The notes beneath the pieces are model-generated. The model searched no databases. It had not been told where the DNA came from and saw only the letters and a program-made list of their open reading frames with translations. Made by a program: the position numbers and the translations under genes. A DNA stretch of 64,000 nucleotides, taken from contig CAZDDU010000001.1 of NCBI GenBank assembly GCA_964504255.1, positions 99,512 to 163,511 of the forward strand, in the 5' to 3' direction. Below, piece after piece: positions 9,444 to 31,325 of this stretch (the first letter of the stretch is position 1; every line of letters starts with the position of its first letter). The stretch comes from an uncultured Candidatus Saccharibacteria bacterium (GTDB lineage: Bacteria; Patescibacteriota; Minisyncoccia; Phycocordibacterales; Zambryskibacteraceae).

Positions 9444-9452
9444 TCCTTTTTT

Positions 9453-9722
9453 CTAAGTGTTAGGCTCTGGGATTTTCTCGATCTTGATTCGGAATTGCTT
9501 AGGCCCACTAATGGCCATCTTGTGGAGGGCTCTGTGGCAAATACCGATCATTGTACCTTCGAAGTAAATCCATTTGCCGGACGTTGCCTCAAAGCCATCG
9601 AGCGGATGAGGCTTTTCGACCAGTGTGTATGTACAAGGCGGACACTCCATCTCAACAAAATTGTTGTCCGCATCGTAGAGATAGAATCTCACCGGGAAGG
9701 TGACCTCATACATGTTCGCCAC
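9453..9722 (-). CDS. hypothetical protein
   Basis: 89-aa ORF; upstream AAAGGAGG RBS, TTGACT-17-TAGTAT promoter and its own terminator. Confidence 0.45.
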   Translation of the reverse strand: MANMYEVTFPVRFYLYDADNNFVEMECPPCTYTLVEKPHPLDGFEATSGKWIYFEGTMIGICHRALHKMAISGPKQFRIKIEKIPEPNT

Positions 9723-10173: not shown

Positions 10174-10212
10174 TAACTCCTCCTGTAAGGTTCAAGATTC
10201 TTCAGTCAGCCT

Positions 10213-10268
10213 ACTCTCAAAATTAAAAAATGCAAAAGAAAAACTCCGATACTGTCGGAGTTTTGTAT
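10213..10268 (-). promoter_or_regulatory. terminator hairpin followed by conserved 31-bp promoter-like element (copy 1)
   Basis: Plus-strand actctcaaaattaaaaaatgcaaaagaaaaa (10213-10243) identical to 10811-10841; minus-strand reading gives hairpin + TTGCAT-16-TAGGCT. Confidence 0.4.
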
Positions 10269-10772: not shown

Positions 10773-10810
10773 TTTGTCTCCAAGTGTGGGTTCGTTTCTA
10801 TTTTTAGAAT

Positions 10811-10866
10811 ACTCTCAAAATTAAAAAATGCAAAAGAAAAATCCCCTAAGCCGGGCCTGGGGGATT
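10811..10866 (-). promoter_or_regulatory. terminator hairpin + conserved 31-bp promoter-like element (copy 2)
   Basis: Same 31-mer as 10213-10243; minus-strand TTGCAT-16-TATTCT; hairpin aatcccc..ggggatt. Confidence 0.4.
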
Positions 10867-11222: not shown

Positions 11223-11347
11223 CTCCTATATGTGAGTTCTACATTAATAGAATCACACATCATTAAAATTGTCAAGCTACCACAATATAGAACTACTATG
11301 AGGAGGGTTAGTGGAGAAGAGGCTGTGGCGCAGATGAGTACATCTGC

Positions 11348-11403
11348 ATCCTACCAAAATATAGAAAAGCCCCGCTCATGCGGGGTTTTCTTATTTTGGT
11401 GGA
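11348..11403. repeat. second copy of the 56-bp ssrA 3'-flank/terminator
   Basis: atcctaccaaaatatagaaaagccccgctcatgcggggttttcttattttggtgga; one mismatch versus 14270-14323. Confidence 0.7.
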
Positions 11404-11466
11404 CTTAGTTAGCGAAAATTGGAATATGCTCCATCTATGGGTTTTCGAAGCCTCTGAGGTGATTTC
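11388..11466. repeat. direct repeat R copy A
   Basis: cttattttggtgga + cttagttagcgaaaattggaatatgctccatctatgggttttcgaagcctctgaggtgattt. Confidence 0.7.
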
Positions 11467-11474
11467 CAGCTCAA

Positions 11475-12200
11475 ATGATAGAATTATCTATCATGAGTTA
11501 TGAAAGCCTAAATTCTGATCTCGACAAACAAGAATTTCTATTTCTGAGTGAGAAAGATCAGCAAGTCTTAAAAGAAGGGGGGCGAAAGGTTGTGGAACTT
11601 TTACTTAAAGACTTTACAGATGAATTACCCAAAGCAATAATTTTCCCTGATACTTCCGCGAGGCCTCTCGCTCACATGTTTCTGCCTATTTTAAGGAAGT
11701 TGTCAGAAGAAAGGGGGCAAGAGATTCCGTCTTTTTATTTTTTCCAACAGGTCCATGGTGACCCATCAAATATAGAGAGAGCTGAAGAGATCCTGGATTA
11801 TGAGGGAAGGGGCTCTAAACTGGAAGAATTTTTAAAGAAGTTTCTATTTAAAGATGGTGGTGGGATAGCAATTATTGATGATTATGTCAGTGCAGAAGCA
11901 AACACTATAGGTAAAATCAGACACGCATTTGGTGACAAAAATATCCCTGCTTATGCAGTGATTGGACAGGTAAATTTTTTTCCTGATTTTGCCAAGATAA
12001 ATGTTGGGTTGCTTGATCCATATGCATCTCGTCCAGGAAGATTGTCAAAAGGTTTCGATTACAGAGAAAGTAATGCTATTGGAGTAAGTAAGGATTCTAA
12101 CTCGATCTATGTATCTAAAAATGAAAGTGTTGGGGAGGATGTTACCAAGCTGAGATCTGATATGAAAAAAGTGGGTGAGGAAATTGCTTCTGGTCTATAG
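11475..12200 (+). CDS. hypothetical protein, diverged phosphoribosyltransferase-like fold
   Basis: GIAIIDDYVSAEANTIGKI resembles the PRTase PRPP-binding loop (hhhhDDhh-TTG-T); GAGGTG RBS supplied by repeat A. Confidence 0.4.
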   Translation: MIELSIMSYESLNSDLDKQEFLFLSEKDQQVLKEGGRKVVELLLKDFTDELPKAIIFPDTSARPLAHMFLPILRKLSEERGQEIPSFYFFQQVHGDPSNIERAEEILDYEGRGSKLEEFLKKFLFKDGGGIAIIDDYVSAEANTIGKIRHAFGDKNIPAYAVIGQVNFFPDFAKINVGLLDPYASRPGRLSKGFDYRESNAIGVSKDSNSIYVSKNESVGEDVTKLRSDMKKVGEEIASGL

Positions 12201-12224
12201 CACAAAACCCACCATGAAGGTGGG

Positions 12225-12303
12225 TCGTGTTATCTGGGGACTTAGTTAGTGAAAATTGGAATATGCTCCATCTTTGGATTTTTGAAGTCTCTGAGGCGAT
12301 TTT
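12225..12303. repeat. direct repeat R copy B
   Basis: hairpin cccaccatgaaggtggg + tcgtgttatctgggga + cttagttagtgaaaattggaatatgctccatctttggatttttgaagtctctgaggcgattt. Confidence 0.7.
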
Positions 12304-12317
12304 AAACAAAACAAAAG

Positions 12318-12350
12318 GAGAGCTGGTTGGGCTCTCCTAAAATCTTTTTG
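12318..12350 (-). terminator. intrinsic terminator for 12369..12650
   Basis: ggagagc-tggttg-ggctctcc hairpin with T-run on minus strand. Confidence 0.5.
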
Positions 12351-12368
12351 GACCAGAGCACTTTCATG

Positions 12369-12650
12369 CTACTCAGGCTTCGTCTTCTTGAATCGCTCGT
12401 CCTTCTCTGCGAGCCAAGTTTCAAGGGCACCGAAGAGTTCTCCGGATTTCACGCCCAGGAGTGTGTGTGGTGGAACTAAGAGAGCATCTTTAGTTCCGTA
12501 AGTCACGTGCCGCTCCTCGCAGATTGCCCTGCCGACCGCTTCAGCGCGCTCGCGGTATTCGCGGTAGAAGTCGGGGTCACTTCCGAAGAGAGTAGTTACA
12601 ACGCCCACTAGTTGAACAGCTTCTATCACATCACTCACAGTTCTTGTCAT
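12369..12650 (-). CDS. hypothetical protein (93 aa)
   Basis: Strong AAGGAG RBS and TTGACA-17-TTTTAT promoter immediately downstream of the duplicated ssrA 3' end. Confidence 0.45.
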   Translation of the reverse strand: MTRTVSDVIEAVQLVGVVTTLFGSDPDFYREYRERAEAVGRAICEERHVTYGTKDALLVPPHTLLGVKSGELFGALETWLAEKDERFKKTKPE

Positions 12651-12712
12651 GGGGGCTCCTTTGGAGATGGTTCTACCAACATAAAATCACAATCAAAAAA
12701 GTATGTCAATAG

Positions 12713-12729
12713 TGGTGGAGATGGGCGGA
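12713..12729 (-). other. 17-nt duplicate of the ssrA 3' end (att-like core)
   Basis: tggtggagatgggcgga identical to 14317-14333, same orientation as ssrA. Confidence 0.6.
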
Positions 12730-12870
12730 CGCTTAGCTATCTCACTCCTCGGAAACCCACGGTTTTCCGAATCCTTCCTCCACGGGAGACCAGAGTGTTC
12801 TCCCGACCCCTCTCCAAGGTTCGATTCCATCACTACTAGCAGATAACACAAAACTCACCATGAAGGTGGG

Positions 12871-12949
12871 TCGTGTTATCTGGGGACTTAGTTAGTGAAA
12901 ATTGGAATATGCTCCATCTTTGGATTTTTGAAGTCTCTGAGGCGATTAT
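12871..12949. repeat. direct repeat R copy C
   Basis: Identical core to copy B, preceded by the same caccatgaaggtgg hairpin. Confidence 0.7.
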
Positions 12950-12974
12950 AGGCTAACGGTGTTAATATGATTGT

Positions 12975-13235
12975 ATGAATTTTGAAAAACCAATAACACA
13001 GGAATCTAACAAGAGGGAAGTTTTTATTAATAAGCTTCGTGAAGAAGTGGGTAGGCTAGTGGAAGCAGGAAGACTTACTCAAGAGCAAGCAGATGAGAAG
13101 ATTGCTAACGCAGAAAAGATTGAGGAGGGTCTTTCTGAAACTCCTGAAGTAGACGCAGAGATATTCGCAATTGCTGGAATATCTACGGAGGCAGAAATGA
13201 TTCAATTGTTAGGAAAAAGAAAAACTGACATTTAG
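12975..13235 (+). CDS. hypothetical protein (86 aa)
   Basis: Coiled-coil-like acidic protein; immediately downstream of repeat C. Confidence 0.4.
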   Translation: MNFEKPITQESNKREVFINKLREEVGRLVEAGRLTQEQADEKIANAEKIEEGLSETPEVDAEIFAIAGISTEAEMIQLLGKRKTDI

Positions 13236-13243
13236 TCAGTCTT

Positions 13244-13320
13244 CTTATTTTGGTGGACTTAGTTAGCGAAAATTGGAATATGCTCCATCTATGGGTTTTC
13301 GAAGCCTCTGAGGCGATTTT
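13244..13320. repeat. direct repeat R copy D
   Basis: cttattttggtgga + core nearly identical to copy A (single T/C difference). Confidence 0.7.
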
Positions 13321-13377
13321 CAAAAATGGCTCTAAATAGGGGTTTTGAACTACCTTTGTTTCAGTGCAGGGTATCTA

Positions 13378-13406
13378 TTGACAGACAGCTCTTACTATGC
13401 TATACT
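13378..13406 (+). promoter_or_regulatory. sigma70-type promoter candidate
   Basis: TTGACA-17 nt-TATACT upstream of ORF 13546. Confidence 0.45.
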
Positions 13407-13545: not shown

Positions 13546-13944
13546 ATGATTAAGTTCGTTACCACCTACCACGGCATGCACCTCAATGTCTTCCTGGTTG
13601 TCGACCAGGACCAAGCCTACCTTTTGTGCTATGAGCACGAGACGGATGAGTTCGGTTACATGTGTCCTTGTTGCATGAACGACAGTCATCGTCGAGCCAT
13701 CATGGACACGGTGAGTGAGGCTATCCGTGATGGTAACGTGAAGGGGACAGTCTTGTGGTGCAGCCACAAGAATGACTCTCCTCACCTCGGCGAAAACTTG
13801 GGCCACTATGCTCCCTTGGAGCAACGCATGTTCAAGGGTGGTTCGGCGAAAGGAATTTCTGCCGAAACTAAGGCCCTCATTCGTGAGGAAGCTTTGCGTC
13901 AGGTGGCTGTGGGAGCCATCAAGGATTTTGCGCCGCGAACGTAA
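13546..13944 (+). CDS. hypothetical Cys-rich protein (132 aa)
   Basis: AGGAGA RBS; CPCC..H motif; chosen over antisense ORF 13498..13959, which is low-complexity. Confidence 0.5.
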   Translation: MIKFVTTYHGMHLNVFLVVDQDQAYLLCYEHETDEFGYMCPCCMNDSHRRAIMDTVSEAIRDGNVKGTVLWCSHKNDSPHLGENLGHYAPLEQRMFKGGSAKGISAETKALIREEALRQVAVGAIKDFAPRT

Positions 13945-14282
13945 TAGCGGTAAACCCACTCGGTGAAGTAACCTACGAGTTCAATCCTCGTAAAACTTTC
14001 AAACAGAACGCACGACCTTAGGGTACGGCGTTCTTTTTCTTTGAATAAAACTATACCTCAAAGAAACAAGAGCTTGAGGGCAGTGGCTTTAATAGCTAAT
14101 AGAAAAGAAATGAACAGTCCACAAAATATCACAAGCTAAACTCGGGAAAGTCTTTCGAGATACTTTCGCGGGCAGATGTGGCTTTAATGAAGCGTCCCGA
14201 TATGCGCAAGCTTATCGAGTATATTGAATCCACCACCTCAGTTGGTGTGGCGTCGCATAGTAATGCGACATCCTACCAAAAT

Positions 14283-14306
14283 ATAGAAAAACCCCGCTCA
14301 TGCGGG
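14283..14306 (-). terminator. intrinsic terminator of ssrA
   Basis: ccccgc-tcat-gcgggg hairpin followed on minus strand by TTTTTCT. Confidence 0.6.
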
Positions 14307-14316
14307 GTTTTCTTAT

Positions 14317-14711
14317 TTTGGTGGAGATGGGCGGAATCGAACCGCCGTGCAAAGATGAATCAGAGTGAGGTCTACATGAGGTAGACTGCTTCATTTGGTT
14401 TCAAACATTAAGATACAAAACAGACGAAAGCTCTTAATGCTCTATCCTCGAGTGTTAGAAGGAGAGTGAGGAGGCTCTACTTCGAGTCCAAAGTATTCCA
14501 CAACTTTCAAGCCCTTGGACAAAGCTTGAGGTCATGCGCACATGCGAGCTTACGCTCTAGCGTATGCGAACTGGAAGTCCTTCATACCGAAGTATGGAGA
14601 AATCCTAGCAAAAGAATCTTTTGCAGTTGAGTTTTGAGAGGGATTTAAGAGTCCTCTCGGCTCTCTCACGCGTCACTCTGATGGTCGTCCTTGTCTAGGC
14701 CGATCATCCCC
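14317..14711 (-). ncRNA. ssrA: transfer-messenger RNA (tmRNA)
   Basis: 5' GGGGAUGAUCGGCCUAGACAAGGACG; 3' GGCGGUUCGAUUCCGCCCAUCUCCACCA; acceptor stem with G3-U70 wobble; sits directly downstream of smpB; ~395 nt. Confidence 0.75.
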
Positions 14712-14726
14712 GTATTTAAATGTAAG

Positions 14727-15164
14727 TTACAAACTTCTCTTTAGGTCTCTCTCGGTGTCGCGCTTCTTGATCGATTCGCGTTTGTCGAATTCCTTCTTAC
14801 CGCGAGCAATAGCGACGCGACACTTGATAAACCTACCTTTATTATACACCGTAATTGGCACAATTGTCAAGCCCTTGGTGGCCTCGGCTGTGGCGAGTTT
14901 CGAGAGCTCGTCTTTGGTCATGAGGAGCTTCCTAACTCTTTTAGGGTCGTAGTCTGTCTTAAGATTTTTGGGCTGGTACGGAGCCACCTCTGCATTGAGG
15001 AGGAAGGCCTCTCCACCTCGGACCGAGACGAAGGAGCCGGCGAGACTCATCTTCCCAGCACGAACACTCTTCACCTCGGGACCATCTAGTTCGAGCCCCG
15101 CCTCGAACTCTTCCATAAGTTCGTAGTCGAAGCGTGCCTTCCTGTTCTCTGCGTAATTACTCAT
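14727..15164 (-). CDS. smpB: SsrA-binding protein SmpB
   Basis: ENRKARFDYEL..AGLEL.G.EVKS.R.G...L..SFV; C-terminal Lys/Arg tail. Confidence 0.9.
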   Translation of the reverse strand: MSNYAENRKARFDYELMEEFEAGLELDGPEVKSVRAGKMSLAGSFVSVRGGEAFLLNAEVAPYQPKNLKTDYDPKRVRKLLMTKDELSKLATAEATKGLTIVPITVYNKGRFIKCRVAIARGKKEFDKRESIKKRDTERDLKRSL

Positions 15165-17525: not shown

Positions 17526-17599
17526 CCGCCCGTAGCTCAGTTGGTTAGAGCACAGAGCTTATACCTCTGGGGTCCTTGGTTCGAATCCAAGCGGGCGGA
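17526..17599 (+). tRNA. tRNA with anticodon UAU (Ile-AUA by standard code); C1-G72; no encoded CCA
   Basis: Cloverleaf: CCGCCCG/CGGGCGG acceptor, TAGCTCAGTTGGTTAGAGC D-arm, CAGAG-CTTATAC-CTCTG anticodon arm, TTCGAAT T-loop. Confidence 0.6.
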
Positions 17600-17638
17600 C
17601 AAGAAAAATCCCCAAACAAAAGTTCGGGGACATGTAAA

Positions 17639-30975: not shown

Positions 30976-30980
30976 TATAG

Positions 30981-31069
30981 CGGAGACGGGGAGATTCGAA
31001 CTCCCGAGGCCTTTTAAAGGGCCTGCCTCTTTAGCAAAGAGGTACGTTAGACCACTCTGACACGTCTCC
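30981..31069 (-). tRNA. tRNA-Ser (GCU), type II
   Basis: GGAGACG acceptor, CCTCT-TTGCTAA-AGAGG anticodon arm, long variable arm, TTCGAAT T-loop, G73. Confidence 0.75.
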
Positions 31070-31122
31070 AAACATTCAAATTAGAGGCTAGTTAGACTTC
31101 ACCCCGCCAGGGCGGGGCAAGC

Positions 31123-31137
31123 TCTGACACGTCTCCA
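31123..31137 (-). other. 15-nt duplicate of the tRNA-Ser 5' end followed by hairpin
   Basis: ctctgacacgtctcc identical to 31051-31065; ccccgccagggcgggg hairpin between copies. Confidence 0.5.
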
Positions 31138-31214
31138 GAATGTGGTCAATTTAGCATAATTGGCCATTTTTAGCGAAGACGCTTTCTGCTATAATCGGCT
31201 CTTAAGTAGCCCAA

Positions 31215-31301
31215 GGAGAGATGGATGAGTGGTTTAAATCAACAGTTTACTAAACTGTCGTTCCTTAATTGGAACCGCGAGTTCGAATCTCGCTCTCTCC
31301 G
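31215..31301 (+). tRNA. type II tRNA, Ser-like (G73), anticodon reads ACU by my fold
   Basis: GGAGAGA/TCTCTCC acceptor, 3-bp D-stem, ACAGT-TTACTAA-ACTGT anticodon arm, 18-nt variable arm, GCGAG-TTCGAAT-CTCGC T-arm. Confidence 0.55.
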
Positions 31302-31325
31302 CATGTGTGCCTCTATAATAGAGAG

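What the first reader, a model, noticed from the sequence alone, without database searches (positions are those of the whole stretch)
11388..13320. Four-copy 63-80 bp direct-repeat family, each copy preceded by a hairpin and a TGGTGGA/TGGGGGA junction
Copies A (11388-11466), B (12225-12303), C (12871-12949) and D (13244-13320) share the core cttagttagYgaaaattggaatatgctccatctWtggRtttttgaagYctctgaggYgatt. A and D are near-identical, B and C are identical, and the two pairs differ at about 8 positions. The substitutions in the cgaaaa…ttttcg segment convert C-G/G-C pairs to U-G/G-U wobbles, which is compatible with a conserved RNA stem. Every copy is immediately preceded by a hairpin, a T-rich tract and tggtgga (A, D) or tggggga (B, C). 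This is the same junction that ends ssrA (TCCACCA on the coding strand). The 3' end of the repeat, ctgaggYgatt, supplies the GAGG Shine-Dalgarno for the downstream ORFs of A and C. The candidate explanations are element ends left by serial integration next to TCCACCA, a cassette-array recombination site (integron-like, but with no IntI and no RYYYAAC/GTTRRRY cores), or a structured 5' leader or sRNA.
Basis: seen in the sequence. Interest (0 to 1): 0.7.

Follow-up and report, generated by a model that had tools for sequence, protein, structure and literature searches.

The report
Orphaned integrase gene tails beside tmRNA
The four repeats are the cut-off last ~22 codons of a serine-integrase gene, left behind each time a small mobile element inserted at the end of the tmRNA gene of this Parcubacteria (candidate phyla radiation, CPR) bacterium; it is a new variant of a kind of island already described in Dehalococcoides.

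Summary
Four copies of a ~66-nt sequence lie on the + strand just downstream of ssrA (tmRNA, 14319-14711, minus strand). Each copy follows a terminator-like hairpin and a TGG(T)GGA junction.

It is not a structured RNA, a Shine-Dalgarno leader or an integron site. Read as (G)TG GAC TTA..., the repeat encodes VDLVSENWNMLHLWVFEASEAI. This is the C-terminal tail of a large serine recombinase (LSR).

- In near-identical strains (L034) and close relatives (L026-L028), LSR genes abut the same ssrA end and read into it antisense (...RLV|EMGGIEPP).
- Joining the L034 attL half to repeat D gives a gapless match to intact LSR C-termini (60% identity, E 3e-28).
- The crossover therefore lies inside the integrase ORF. 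Integration strands the tail at attR.
- A decayed LSR N-terminus (14058-14234) survives in the unit nearest ssrA.
- Strains at 98-99% identity differ by whole hairpin-cargo-tail units.

The closest known system is the Dehalococcoides ssrA-specific islands: LSR DsiB overlapping attL, tandem arrays, integrase-less members.

How the integrase-less micro-units (0.4-1.1 kb) arise or move is unresolved.

The parts
11399..11464 (+). Repeat A: orphaned LSR tail (VDLVSENWNMLHLWVFEASEVI). The junction TGG|TGGA is at 11397-11403. This is an attR-type site with flank X.
   Evidence: (phmmer E 3.6e-4 with P0163)
12236..12301 (+). Repeat B: LSR tail (GDLVSENWNMLHLWIFEVSEAI). The junction is CTG|GGGA, preceded by hairpin hp2.
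12882..12947 (+). Repeat C: LSR tail, identical to B. The junction is CTG|GGGA, preceded by hairpin hp2.
13253..13318 (+). Repeat D: LSR tail (VDLVSENWNMLHLWVFEASEAI, ORF open to 13336). The junction is TGG|TGGA, preceded by hairpin hp3.
   Evidence: (E 3.8e-5)
11324..11398 (.). Flank X: ssrA-downstream-type module (CCA, T-tract, terminator hairpin, second hairpin) on the chromosomal side of junction A. It is 86% identical to X'.
   Evidence: (D2)
12197..12235 (.). hp2 hairpin module, copy 1, left of repeat B. The same module lies directly next to ssrA in strains L006, L024, L025, L029, L032 and L033.
12843..12881 (.). hp2 hairpin module, copy 2, left of repeat C.
13214..13252 (.). hp3 hairpin: the terminator of g86, followed by CTTATTTTGG, left of repeat D.
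14246..14318 (.). Flank X': the terminator module directly downstream of the intact ssrA. It gives an attB-like configuration.
14319..14711 (-). ssrA (tmRNA), the integration target. The crossover falls in TCCA at the discriminator/CCA boundary (14319-14325).
14058..14234 (+). Decayed N-terminal part of an LSR gene (catalytic-domain positions 17-74, two in-frame stops), reading towards ssrA.
   Evidence: E 4.8e-7
11475..12200 (+). Cargo gene g235/241 of unit A. No family match.
12369..12650 (-). Gene g93 in unit B, with its own TTGACA promoter-like site and a bidirectional terminator.
12975..13235 (+). Cargo gene g86 of unit C (near-threshold DUF2680 match: 23.7 bits against Pfam's gathering cut-off of 25).
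13546..13944 (+). Cargo gene g132 of unit D, preceded by a TTGACA-17-TATACT site at 13378-13406.
12716..12732 (-). 17-nt copy of the ssrA 3' end (TCCGCCCATCTCCACCA). It is a remnant of a different, T-loop-type integration event inside unit B.

Best explanation
Each repeat is the 3'-terminal ~22 codons of a large-serine-recombinase (LSR) integrase gene. It is also the element-side (P) arm of the element's attachment site.

In this LSR clade the crossover point lies inside the integrase ORF, at codons Leu-Val|Asp (..TTG G|TG GAC..). It pairs with TCCA at the discriminator/CCA boundary of ssrA. Integration therefore splits the gene:
- The body stays next to ssrA at attL and now reads into antisense ssrA (..LV|EMGGIEPP).
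- The tail is stranded at the far end of the element at attR, next to whatever terminator followed ssrA at that moment.

Repeated integrations at the regenerated ssrA end, each followed by loss of the integrase body, have left a stack of units. Each unit is tail, one small cargo gene, then a terminator hairpin. The newest unit lies nearest ssrA.

Shown:
- the coding identity of the repeat
- the split-gene junction
- integrase genes at this ssrA end in close strains
- unit-wise strain variation
- a decaying integrase in the ssrA-proximal unit

Inferred:
- that the LSR catalysed these events
- the order of arrival
- that the ssrA-proximal flank was restored (attB-like) between integrations

Not explained: the precise route by which integrase-less units with exact hairpin|tail joints arise.
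For: 1. Reading frame. The frame (G)TG GAC.. is open in 7 of 8 indel-free copies, with 1 stop in total. The other two frames carry 15 and 21 stops. In the 22-codon core, 7 variant codons are synonymous and 5 are not (output, counted by hand, leaving out the divergent L029 copy).

2. Independent homology. The C-termini of LSRs P0163 and P0186 were searched against all 2483 six-frame pieces of the window. The four repeats are the top four hits, with E 3.8e-5 to 8.5e-4 and 0.003 to 0.07.

3. Integrase at the same site. L034 is a strain 98.4% identical here and has ..SLPLRVFTLPEALKPRLV|EMGG running into ssrA. L026, L027 and L028 (SmpB 92-93% identical) have ..TEKSRLV|EMGGIEPP.

4. Family identity. 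Full-length relatives of these fragments are 514-545 aa with Resolvase, Recombinase and Zn_ribbon_recom domains.

5. Split-gene junction. The L034 attL half plus repeat D aligns without gaps across the joint to P0163 (42/70 identical, E 3e-28) and to P0186 (E 2e-18).

6. Tail types in the clade. By a rough pattern count, about 116 of 152 cluster representatives end in an antisense-tDNA tail (VEMxGIEP). Eight carry the 'free' tail LVD....WN.L..W.

7. Integrase remnant in the window. An LSR N-terminal pseudogene lies at 14058-14234 (E 4.8e-7).

8. Strain series:
- L024: ssrA|hp2-g235-A|X
- L006: ssrA|hp2-..g93-B'|hp2-g95
- L021: ..D|hp3-g86-rep|X
- window: four units
Seven of the ten smpB contigs fetched (L008, L010-L015) stop at the ssrA 3' end, within 6 nt of it. 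L007 and L009 run only about 400 nt past smpB, so they stop there or within a few nt beyond it.

9. Precedent. In Dehalococcoides ssrA islands, dsiB always overlaps attL at its 3' end. The islands stand in tandem and 15 of them lack an integration module (PMC3146451).
Against: - No intact LSR is present in the 64-kb window (Pfam on selected ORFs).
- No full-length LSR carrying exactly this tail was found.
- The hairpin flanks do not resemble the integrase-side (P') sequences of L034 or L026. Simple in-situ deletion of the integrase therefore does not explain the exact hairpin|TGGA joints.
- X' next to the integrase remnant is extra DNA of unexplained origin.
- Repeat copies are mosaics: the left part travels with the hairpin and the right part with the cargo. 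Homologous exchange inside the repeat therefore also happens.
- Two copies (L029_2, L003_2) have frameshifts and one (L025_1) has a stop. This fits scars but does not add support.
- The synonymous excess rests on only 12 variant codons.
- No recombination has been observed directly.
Confidence: 0.85

Rival explanations
1. The hairpin|tail junctions are live recombination sites of integrase-less micro-cassettes (tail, gene, terminator). A helper LSR would capture, excise or co-mobilise them in trans or in cis. The result would be an integron-like or CIME-like (cis-mobilisable element) gene-capture array at ssrA, not a stack of dead scars.
For: - Units have discrete boundaries at both ends in several strains.
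- The same unit appears in different neighbourhoods. g235 sits next to X in L024 but next to hp2 in L025. g86 sits next to hp2 in the window but next to X in L021.
- Contigs of unit length end at the repeats.
- Every hairpin module supplies CCA and/or a terminator to ssrA.
- Cis-mobilisable, integrase-less islands were proposed for Dehalococcoides.
Against: - Canonical serine integrases need specific half-sites on both sides. The hairpin sides are diverse and unlike the integrase-side arm.
- No circular junction or empty site specific to one cassette has been seen.
- Reshuffling can also be explained by homologous exchange within the 66-108-nt repeats (mosaic copies).
- Some tails carry a stop or a frameshift.
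Confidence: 0.3
2. The repeats matter mainly as portable homology. Cassette gain, loss and shuffling between strains would occur by RecA-type recombination between repeat copies, for example after DNA uptake. Site-specific integration would play a part only at the origin.
For: - Mosaic copies have break points at different places inside the repeat. L021_1 has a left part like A and a right part like C. L025_1 has a left part like B/C and a right end like A.
- B and C are identical over 108 nt within one genome.
- The window encodes type IV pilus genes.
Against: - It cannot create the ssrA|flank joints, where ssrA and the repeat share only 4-8 nt.
- It does not explain why the repeat is an integrase tail, or why integrase genes sit at the site.
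Confidence: 0.15
3. The repeat is a structured 5' leader, a small RNA or a promoter/ribosome-binding module for the downstream genes.
For: - A stem (CGAAAA/TTTTCG plus TGGA/TCCA) can be drawn, and 94% of cells pair.
- In the window, three of four copies are followed by a + strand gene.
Against: - There is no covariation: 373 of 500 shuffles reach the observed pairing, and the RNAalifold covariation term is +0.49.
- The outer stem is broken in L029 and L003_2.
- No Rfam family matches at E up to 10.
- GAGG lies 15 and 32 nt from the start codons.
- g132 has its own TTGACA-17-TATACT site. By eye, g235 and g86 have extended -10 sites.
- Copy B has no downstream + strand gene.
Confidence: 0.03

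Closest known systems
Dehalococcoides ssrA-specific genomic islands (ssrA-GIs) with the serine integrase DsiB (McMurdie et al. 2011, PMC3146451)
   Same: - Islands stacked in tandem directly downstream of the single-copy ssrA.
- A ~540-aa serine recombinase next to attL, on the strand opposite ssrA, whose ORF runs across attL into ssrA or into the next island.
- A conserved element-side motif next to each repeat.
- Many islands lack an integrase and were interpreted as cis-mobilisable elements.
- The authors already suggested that the integrase may be complete only on the circular element, or only when it lies downstream of an adjacent island that supplies the 3' gene fragment.
   Different: - Here the crossover is at the discriminator/CCA boundary, not in the T-loop.
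- Only 4-8 nt are shared with ssrA, instead of a 20-bp direct repeat.
- No six-gene integration module is seen.
- Units are 0.4-1.1 kb with one small gene, against about 12 kb for the vcrABC-carrying islands.
- The displaced tail is conserved as a peptide motif across distant LSRs, whereas that region of DsiB was reported as divergent.
- The host is a Parcubacteria/CPR bacterium.
- Whether DsiB belongs to this LSR clade was not tested.
SCC/SCCmec composite islands at rlmH (orfX) in staphylococci, with CcrAB serine recombinases
   Same: - Serine-recombinase elements insert at the 3' end of one conserved gene.
- Tandem composites include recombinase-less pseudo-SCC units bounded by repeated site sequences.
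(My own knowledge, and the comparison made in PMC3146451.)
   Different: - The target there is a protein-coding gene, and the repeat restores its last codons.
- The recombinase gene is internal and is not split by integration.
SSV1-type archaeal integrases, whose attP lies inside the int gene
   Same: Integration partitions the integrase gene, so a gene fragment marks each end of the integrated element (my own knowledge).
   Different: - Those are tyrosine recombinases.
- The split there is deep in the gene and inactivates it.
- Here only a ~22-45-residue tail is exchanged.
Integron cassette arrays
   Same: - A one-sided array of small, mostly single-gene units.
- Each unit carries a conserved ~60-110-nt site.
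- Units stack at one fixed chromosomal point, and content varies between strains.
   Different: - No IntI tyrosine recombinase.
- No attC cores or attC-type imperfect palindrome.
- The conserved site lies 5' of the cargo gene.
- The cargo genes have their own promoter-like sites.
- The anchor is ssrA, not attI.
Tyrosine-integrase tDNA islands (Islander-type signature)
   Same: Integration at a tRNA or tmRNA gene, with arrays of remnants downstream.
   Different: - Those leave a displaced tDNA 3' fragment, normally 15 nt or more. Here only TCCA(CCA) is shared.
- The enzyme here is a serine recombinase.
- Islander (2014) stated that serine integrases were not known to target tDNAs.

Membership tests
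LSR-driven ssrA-specific tandem islands (Dehalococcoides ssrA-GI type) | Units lie directly downstream of ssrA, stacked in tandem and bounded by a repeated att-derived sequence. | tested here: met
   Four junctions lie within 3 kb of the ssrA 3' end. Unit-wise differences appear between strains.
LSR-driven ssrA-specific tandem islands (Dehalococcoides ssrA-GI type) | A large serine recombinase gene lies next to attL, with its ORF running across the junction. | tested here: met
   - Seen in L034, a 98.4% identical strain.
- Seen in L026-L028.
- Domain content of full-length relatives confirmed.
- In the window itself only an N-terminal pseudogene remains.
LSR-driven ssrA-specific tandem islands (Dehalococcoides ssrA-GI type) | A direct repeat of about 20 bp of the ssrA 3' end lies at every boundary, with the crossover in the T-loop. 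| tested here: not met
   Only TGGA to TGGTGGA (4-7 nt) is shared between ssrA and the repeats. The crossover is at the discriminator/CCA boundary.
LSR-driven ssrA-specific tandem islands (Dehalococcoides ssrA-GI type) | A syntenic integration module is present (DsiA small recombinase, RecF-like, ParB, Mom, and a large protein with an RNA-polymerase domain). | tested here: not met
   Island ORFs give no such Pfam hits. L031 elements consist of cargo plus LSR only.
Integron | An IntI tyrosine recombinase with attI lies next to the array. | tested here: not met
   None of the 30 ORFs scanned in the window (the 10 island ORFs and 20 others) gave a tyrosine recombinase hit. Not every ORF was scanned.
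Integron | attC sites are present: imperfect palindromes with RYYYAAC/GTTRRRY cores 3' of promoterless cassettes. | tested here: not met
   - No such cores are seen in the sequence.
- The repeat lies 5' of the cargo.
- There is a promoter-like site before g132.
Structured RNA (cis-leader or sRNA) | Base pairs are maintained by compensatory changes, or the sequence matches a curated family. | tested here: not met
   - One pair has a double change.
- Pairing equals the shuffled expectation.
- The covariation term is +0.49.
- There is no Rfam hit.
CRISPR array | Short repeats (about 25-40 nt) at a regular spacing of about 60-75 nt, with unique spacers. | tested here: not met
   The spacing is 837, 646 and 371 nt, and genes lie between the copies.
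MITE (miniature inverted-repeat transposable element) | Terminal inverted repeats and target-site duplications, with copies dispersed in the genome. | tested here: not met
   - No inverted arms bound the copies.
- All copies share one orientation at one locus.
- The 20-mer is absent from the GTDB representative genomes apart from chance hits.
Tyrosine-integrase tDNA island (Islander signature) | A displaced tDNA 3' fragment lies at the distal end and a tyrosine integrase is on board. | tested here: not met
   This is not met for the 66-nt repeat junctions. A separate 17-nt ssrA fragment at 12716-12732 does fit this signature, but no integrase accompanies it.
Cis-mobilisable elements (CIME) / accretion | Integrase-less units are flanked by functional att sites and excise with or through a neighbouring element. 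| not testable with these tools
   The architecture is compatible. Excision cannot be observed here.

The most novel reading that the evidence does not exclude
The split is functional, not incidental. In a large clade of serine integrases (1565 cluster representatives at E<=1e-3) that target the extreme 3' end of tRNA/tmRNA genes, the enzyme would carry its conserved LVD..WN.L..W tail in only two situations: when the element is circular, or when it sits in front of another element's stranded tail. When integrated alone it would carry an arbitrary antisense-tDNA tail. The tail swap would act as a built-in sensor of integration state that biases integration against excision. Stranded tails in arrays could re-arm the integrase of the next element. 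Integrase-less micro-cassettes would exploit this, giving CPR bacteria an integron-like gene-capture site at ssrA.
Probability: 0.25. Interest if true: 0.75.

Novelty: new variant of a known kind. Interest (0 to 1): 0.5.

Why it matters
- It turns an unexplained repeat into a readable record of serial integrations at ssrA in a streamlined CPR genome.
- It shows that near-identical strains in several public samples differ mainly by these units.
- It extends the Dehalococcoides type of serine-integrase ssrA island to another phylum and to a different crossover position.
- It points to a large, mostly unannotated clade of serine integrases aimed at tDNA 3' ends, a target class long assigned to tyrosine integrases only.
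- The conserved stranded tail gives a testable hypothesis for state-dependent control of a serine integrase.
- It also gives a simple sequence signature (tail peptide plus TGGA joint) for mapping such elements.

Tried and rejected
- **Public collection scans.** The 20-mer AAATTGGAATATGCTCCATC gave only chance hits in GTDB genomes. It gave one true metagenome hit, L003. A degenerate 18-mer in viral contigs gave unrelated coding hits.
- **Rfam.** Nothing was found for the repeat at gathering thresholds or at E up to 10.
- **RNA stem.** My first structure string was mis-registered by 2 columns and was redone. There is no covariation.
- **Cargo function.** Pfam and PADLOC gave nothing on the window's cargo proteins beyond a near-threshold DUF2680 match for g86 (23.7 bits against a 25-bit cut-off). 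The L003 cargo protein gave a weak TIR match.
- **Integrase in the window.** Pfam on 20 mid-sized ORFs and an LSR profile against all six frames found only the pseudogene.
- **Full-length LSR with this exact tail.** A chimeric query found none.
- **Hairpin flanks as integrase-derived arms.** I looked for similarity between them and the LSR 3' coding ends of L034 and L026. None was seen by eye.
- **Dif/Xer-like and tyrosine core sites.** I considered these around TGGA-N6-TCCA and dropped them once the coding explanation held.
- **g93 look-up.** The exact protein is not on record.
Full report
**Observation**

The region was read directly. A 23-nt core of the repeat occurs exactly four times in the 64-kb window, always on the + strand. 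None is expected in 100 shuffles.

The repeat finder returns one four-copy family at 11360-11467, 12197-12304, 12843-12950 and 13214-13321. B and C are the same over 108 nt, including the hairpin to their left. A and D are near-identical. An alignment fixes the common block from the junction TGG(T)GGA to ...GATT(TT).

**Setting**

- ARAGORN and Rfam place a one-piece tmRNA gene (ssrA) at 14319-14711 on the minus strand.
- smpB lies at 14727-15164 and ftsH beyond it.
- A DUF1003 gene and infC-rpmI-rplT lie on the other side.
- Names given to SmpB homologues indicate a Parcubacteria/Minisyncoccota (CPR) bacterium.
- The 5.5 kb between DUF1003 and ssrA hold only small ORFs. Apart from a near-threshold DUF2680 match for g86, none has a family match.
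- On the + strand the ssrA 3' end reads TGGTGGA|GATGGGCGGAATCG. In the repeats the same TGGTGGA is followed by CTTAGTTAG...
- The 73 nt to the left of ssrA (X', 14246-14318) recur at 86% identity to the left of copy A (X, 11324-11396).

**Rarity and locus specificity**

A 20-mer from the core found only chance matches in one genome per GTDB species. It found one true match among metagenome contigs: L003, which carries two copies, again hairpin, TGGTGGA, repeat. Viral contigs gave nothing related. A nucleotide profile of the copies, run over all fetched loci, hit only ssrA-linked arrays.

**Strain comparison**

Contigs encoding the identical SmpB were aligned to the window. Seven of the ten (L008, L010-L015) stop at the ssrA 3' end, at 14321-14326. 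L007 and L009 run only about 400 nt past smpB, so they stop there or within a few nt beyond it. This is the pattern expected where strains diverge.

Below, units are written in the ssrA direction:

| Source | Array |
|---|---|
| Window | ssrA \| X'-PsiLSR-g132-D \| hp3-g86-C \| hp2-..g93-B \| hp2-g235-A \| X-g103.. |
| L006 (98-99% identical) | ssrA \| hp2-..g93-B' \| hp2-g95.. |
| L024 | ssrA \| hp2-g235-A \| X-g103 |
| L025 | ssrA \| hp2-g235-rep \| hp2.. |
| L021-L023 | ..D \| hp3-g86-rep \| X-another gene |
| L029 (SmpB 87%) | ssrA \| hp2-..g113-rep \| hp5-g231-rep \| hp6-g120 |

Whole units of hairpin, cargo and repeat are therefore the currency of variation. Every joint falls at TCCA.

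**What the repeat is**

In L026, L027 and L028 (SmpB 92-93% identical) no repeat is present. Instead an ORF fragment reads into the antisense of the ssrA end...SLPVMVFQHSHTEKSRLV|EMGGIEPP. Pfam did not name it.

A profile of it and three homologues (A2) was searched against 1.84 billion cluster representatives:
- It found 1565 proteins at E<=1e-3.
- The full-length ones are 514-545 aa and match at their C-termini.
- They carry Resolvase, Recombinase and Zn_ribbon_recom domains, so they are large serine recombinases.

By a rough pattern count, about 116 of the 152 sequences examined end in VEMxG(I/V)EP-type tails, the translation of antisense tDNA T-arms. Eight end differently, in LVD....(S/N)WN.L..W...

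In the frame set by the L026 junction, the window repeat reads (G)TG GAC TTA GTT AGC.. = VDLVSENWNMLHLWVFEASEAI. That is the same motif as P0163 (LVDVTRNQWNQLQDWVFQSSQAIL) and P0186 (LVDIEPESWNQLKHWLIESHERI).

**Tests of the coding reading**

1. The frame is open in 7 of 8 indel-free copies, against 15 and 21 stops in the other frames. In the 22-codon core, 7 variant codons are synonymous (AGC/AGT, CAT/CAC, CTA/CTT/CTC, TTC/TTT, GAA/GAG, GCC/GCT) and 5 are not (counted by hand, leaving out the divergent L029 copy).
2. The last 75-80 residues of P0163 and P0186, neither derived from this window, were searched against all 2483 six-frame pieces of the window. The four repeats are the four best hits, with E 3.8e-5 to 8.5e-4 and 0.003 to 0.07.
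3. L034, a strain 98.4% identical over ssrA-ftsH, has ...NSGFETATLSLPLRVFTLPEALKPRLV|EMGG abutting ssrA. Joining that attL half to repeat D gives a 75-residue peptide that aligns without a gap across the joint to P0163 (42/70 identical, E 3e-28) and to P0186 (E 2e-18).
4. Between g132 and X', the + strand at 14058-14234 matches positions 17-74 of the LSR catalytic domain (SxxQ..EGxG..S...RP.M..L..Y) through two in-frame stops, with E 4.8e-7. The unit nearest ssrA therefore still holds a decaying integrase. No other LSR sequence is in the window.
5. L031 shows the intact architecture elsewhere: LSR, cargo, LSR, cargo in tandem, each LSR body followed in frame by a tail.

**Mechanism**

The crossover lies in TGGA. 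The DNA shared by ssrA and the repeats is only TGGA to TGGTGGA, at codons Leu-Val|Asp of the integrase and at the discriminator/CCA boundary of ssrA. Integration leaves the integrase body at attL and the tail at attR.

Each hairpin to the left of a tail begins, on the ssrA strand, with CCA or CA followed by a T-tract terminator. It looks like the flank that followed ssrA when the next element arrived. The array then reads as a series of integrations at a repeatedly restored ssrA end, with the oldest unit farthest from ssrA.

That restoration step is inferred, not shown. X' beside the integrase remnant suggests that the integrase-proximal part was replaced by a naive ssrA flank. hp3 shares CTTATTTTGG with X, which would fit further trimming.

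Repeat copies are mosaics whose left part follows the hairpin and whose right part follows the cargo. Homologous exchange inside the repeat therefore also reshuffles units. Whether integrase-less units move on their own or with a neighbour cannot be decided here.

**Rejected readings**

- *RNA structure.* A stem can be drawn, but pairing (94.3%) equals the shuffled expectation. Only one pair has a double change, and the RNAalifold covariation term is unfavourable. There is no Rfam match.
- *Shine-Dalgarno.* GAGG is 15 nt and 32 nt from the start codons of g235 and g86. g132 has its own TTGACA-17-TATACT site. By eye, g235 and g86 are preceded by TGATAGAAT and TGTTAATAT.
- *Integron, CRISPR and MITE.* Their defining features are not met (see the membership table).

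**Comparison with the literature**

McMurdie et al. 2011 (PMC3146451) described tandem ssrA-specific islands in Dehalococcoides. Their findings:
- a 540-aa serine recombinase, DsiB, next to attL
- a remark that dsiB always overlaps attL at its 3' end, and may be fully functional only on the circular element or only when it lies downstream of an adjacent island that supplies the 3' gene fragment
- 15 islands without integration modules, interpreted as cis-mobilisable

The present case is the same kind of system. Its differences are a different crossover position, no 20-bp ssrA repeat, no integration module, micro-sized units, a tail conserved as a peptide motif, and a CPR host.

Islander (PMC4383910) stated that serine integrases were not known to target tDNAs. 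The size of this clade suggests otherwise, although only the ssrA cases were checked at the DNA level here.

**Verdict**

The repeat is real and explained. It is the stranded 3' end of a serine-integrase gene that marks attR sites of serial integrations at ssrA.

- Confidence in this: about 0.85.
- Confidence in the serial-integration-and-decay history: about 0.6.
- Novelty: a new variant of a known kind.
- Interest: moderate.

Noticed in passing
window 12716-12842 (also L006 5226-5352, L029 3243-3375, L033): A 17-nt copy of the ssrA 3' end (TCCGCCCATCTCCACCA on the ssrA strand) sits next to a conserved ~110-nt block and the hp2 inverted repeat. It looks like the attR of a different, T-loop-type (tyrosine-integrase style) element nested in the array. 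The 110-nt block has no Rfam match.
   Followed up: partly
window 10212-10243 and 10810-10841; 9450-9722: An identical 32-nt promoter-like repeat precedes minus-strand small genes of seemingly higher G+C. These gene slots also differ between strains. Window 9450-9722 (an 89-aa ORF) is absent from L006, with a 7-nt overlap at the joint. L006 and L021 each carry other genes at the same positions. This may be a second kind of cassette turnover in the same island.
   Followed up: partly
window 11330-11347 versus 14252-14269: The first hairpin of the X/X' module keeps its AGTA loop while 5 of 7 stem pairs differ on both sides (GCAGATG..CATCTGC versus GTCGCAT..ATGCGAC). A structure downstream of the ssrA terminator seems to be under selection. 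Its function is unknown.
   Followed up: no
L031 1849-12300: A tandem array of LSR, cargo, LSR, cargo. The cargo is defence-like: AAA_21/AAA_15 plus DUF4238, and an AAA_13 ATPase. In L003 a weakly TIR-like protein follows a repeat copy. This suggests that these elements often carry defence genes.
   Followed up: partly
window 17526-17600; 30980-31302: There is a tRNA-Ile with anticodon TAT. A predicted tRNA-Ser with the unusual anticodon ACT faces a tRNA-Ser(GCT). Rfam confirms the ACT one as a tRNA, but not the GCT one at gathering score.
   Followed up: no
window 14319-14711: ARAGORN predicts a long, unusual tmRNA tag peptide (AKDSFARISPYFGMKDFQFAYARA). It is conserved, with small changes, in the relatives L026-L029.
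   Followed up: no
L026 11488-11763 and 10790-11515: In the 92-93% relatives the LSR next to ssrA is truncated at its zinc-ribbon half, beside an HTH_5/ArsR-type regulator gene. The truncation point is the same in three samples, which points to a fixed integrase remnant.
   Followed up: partly
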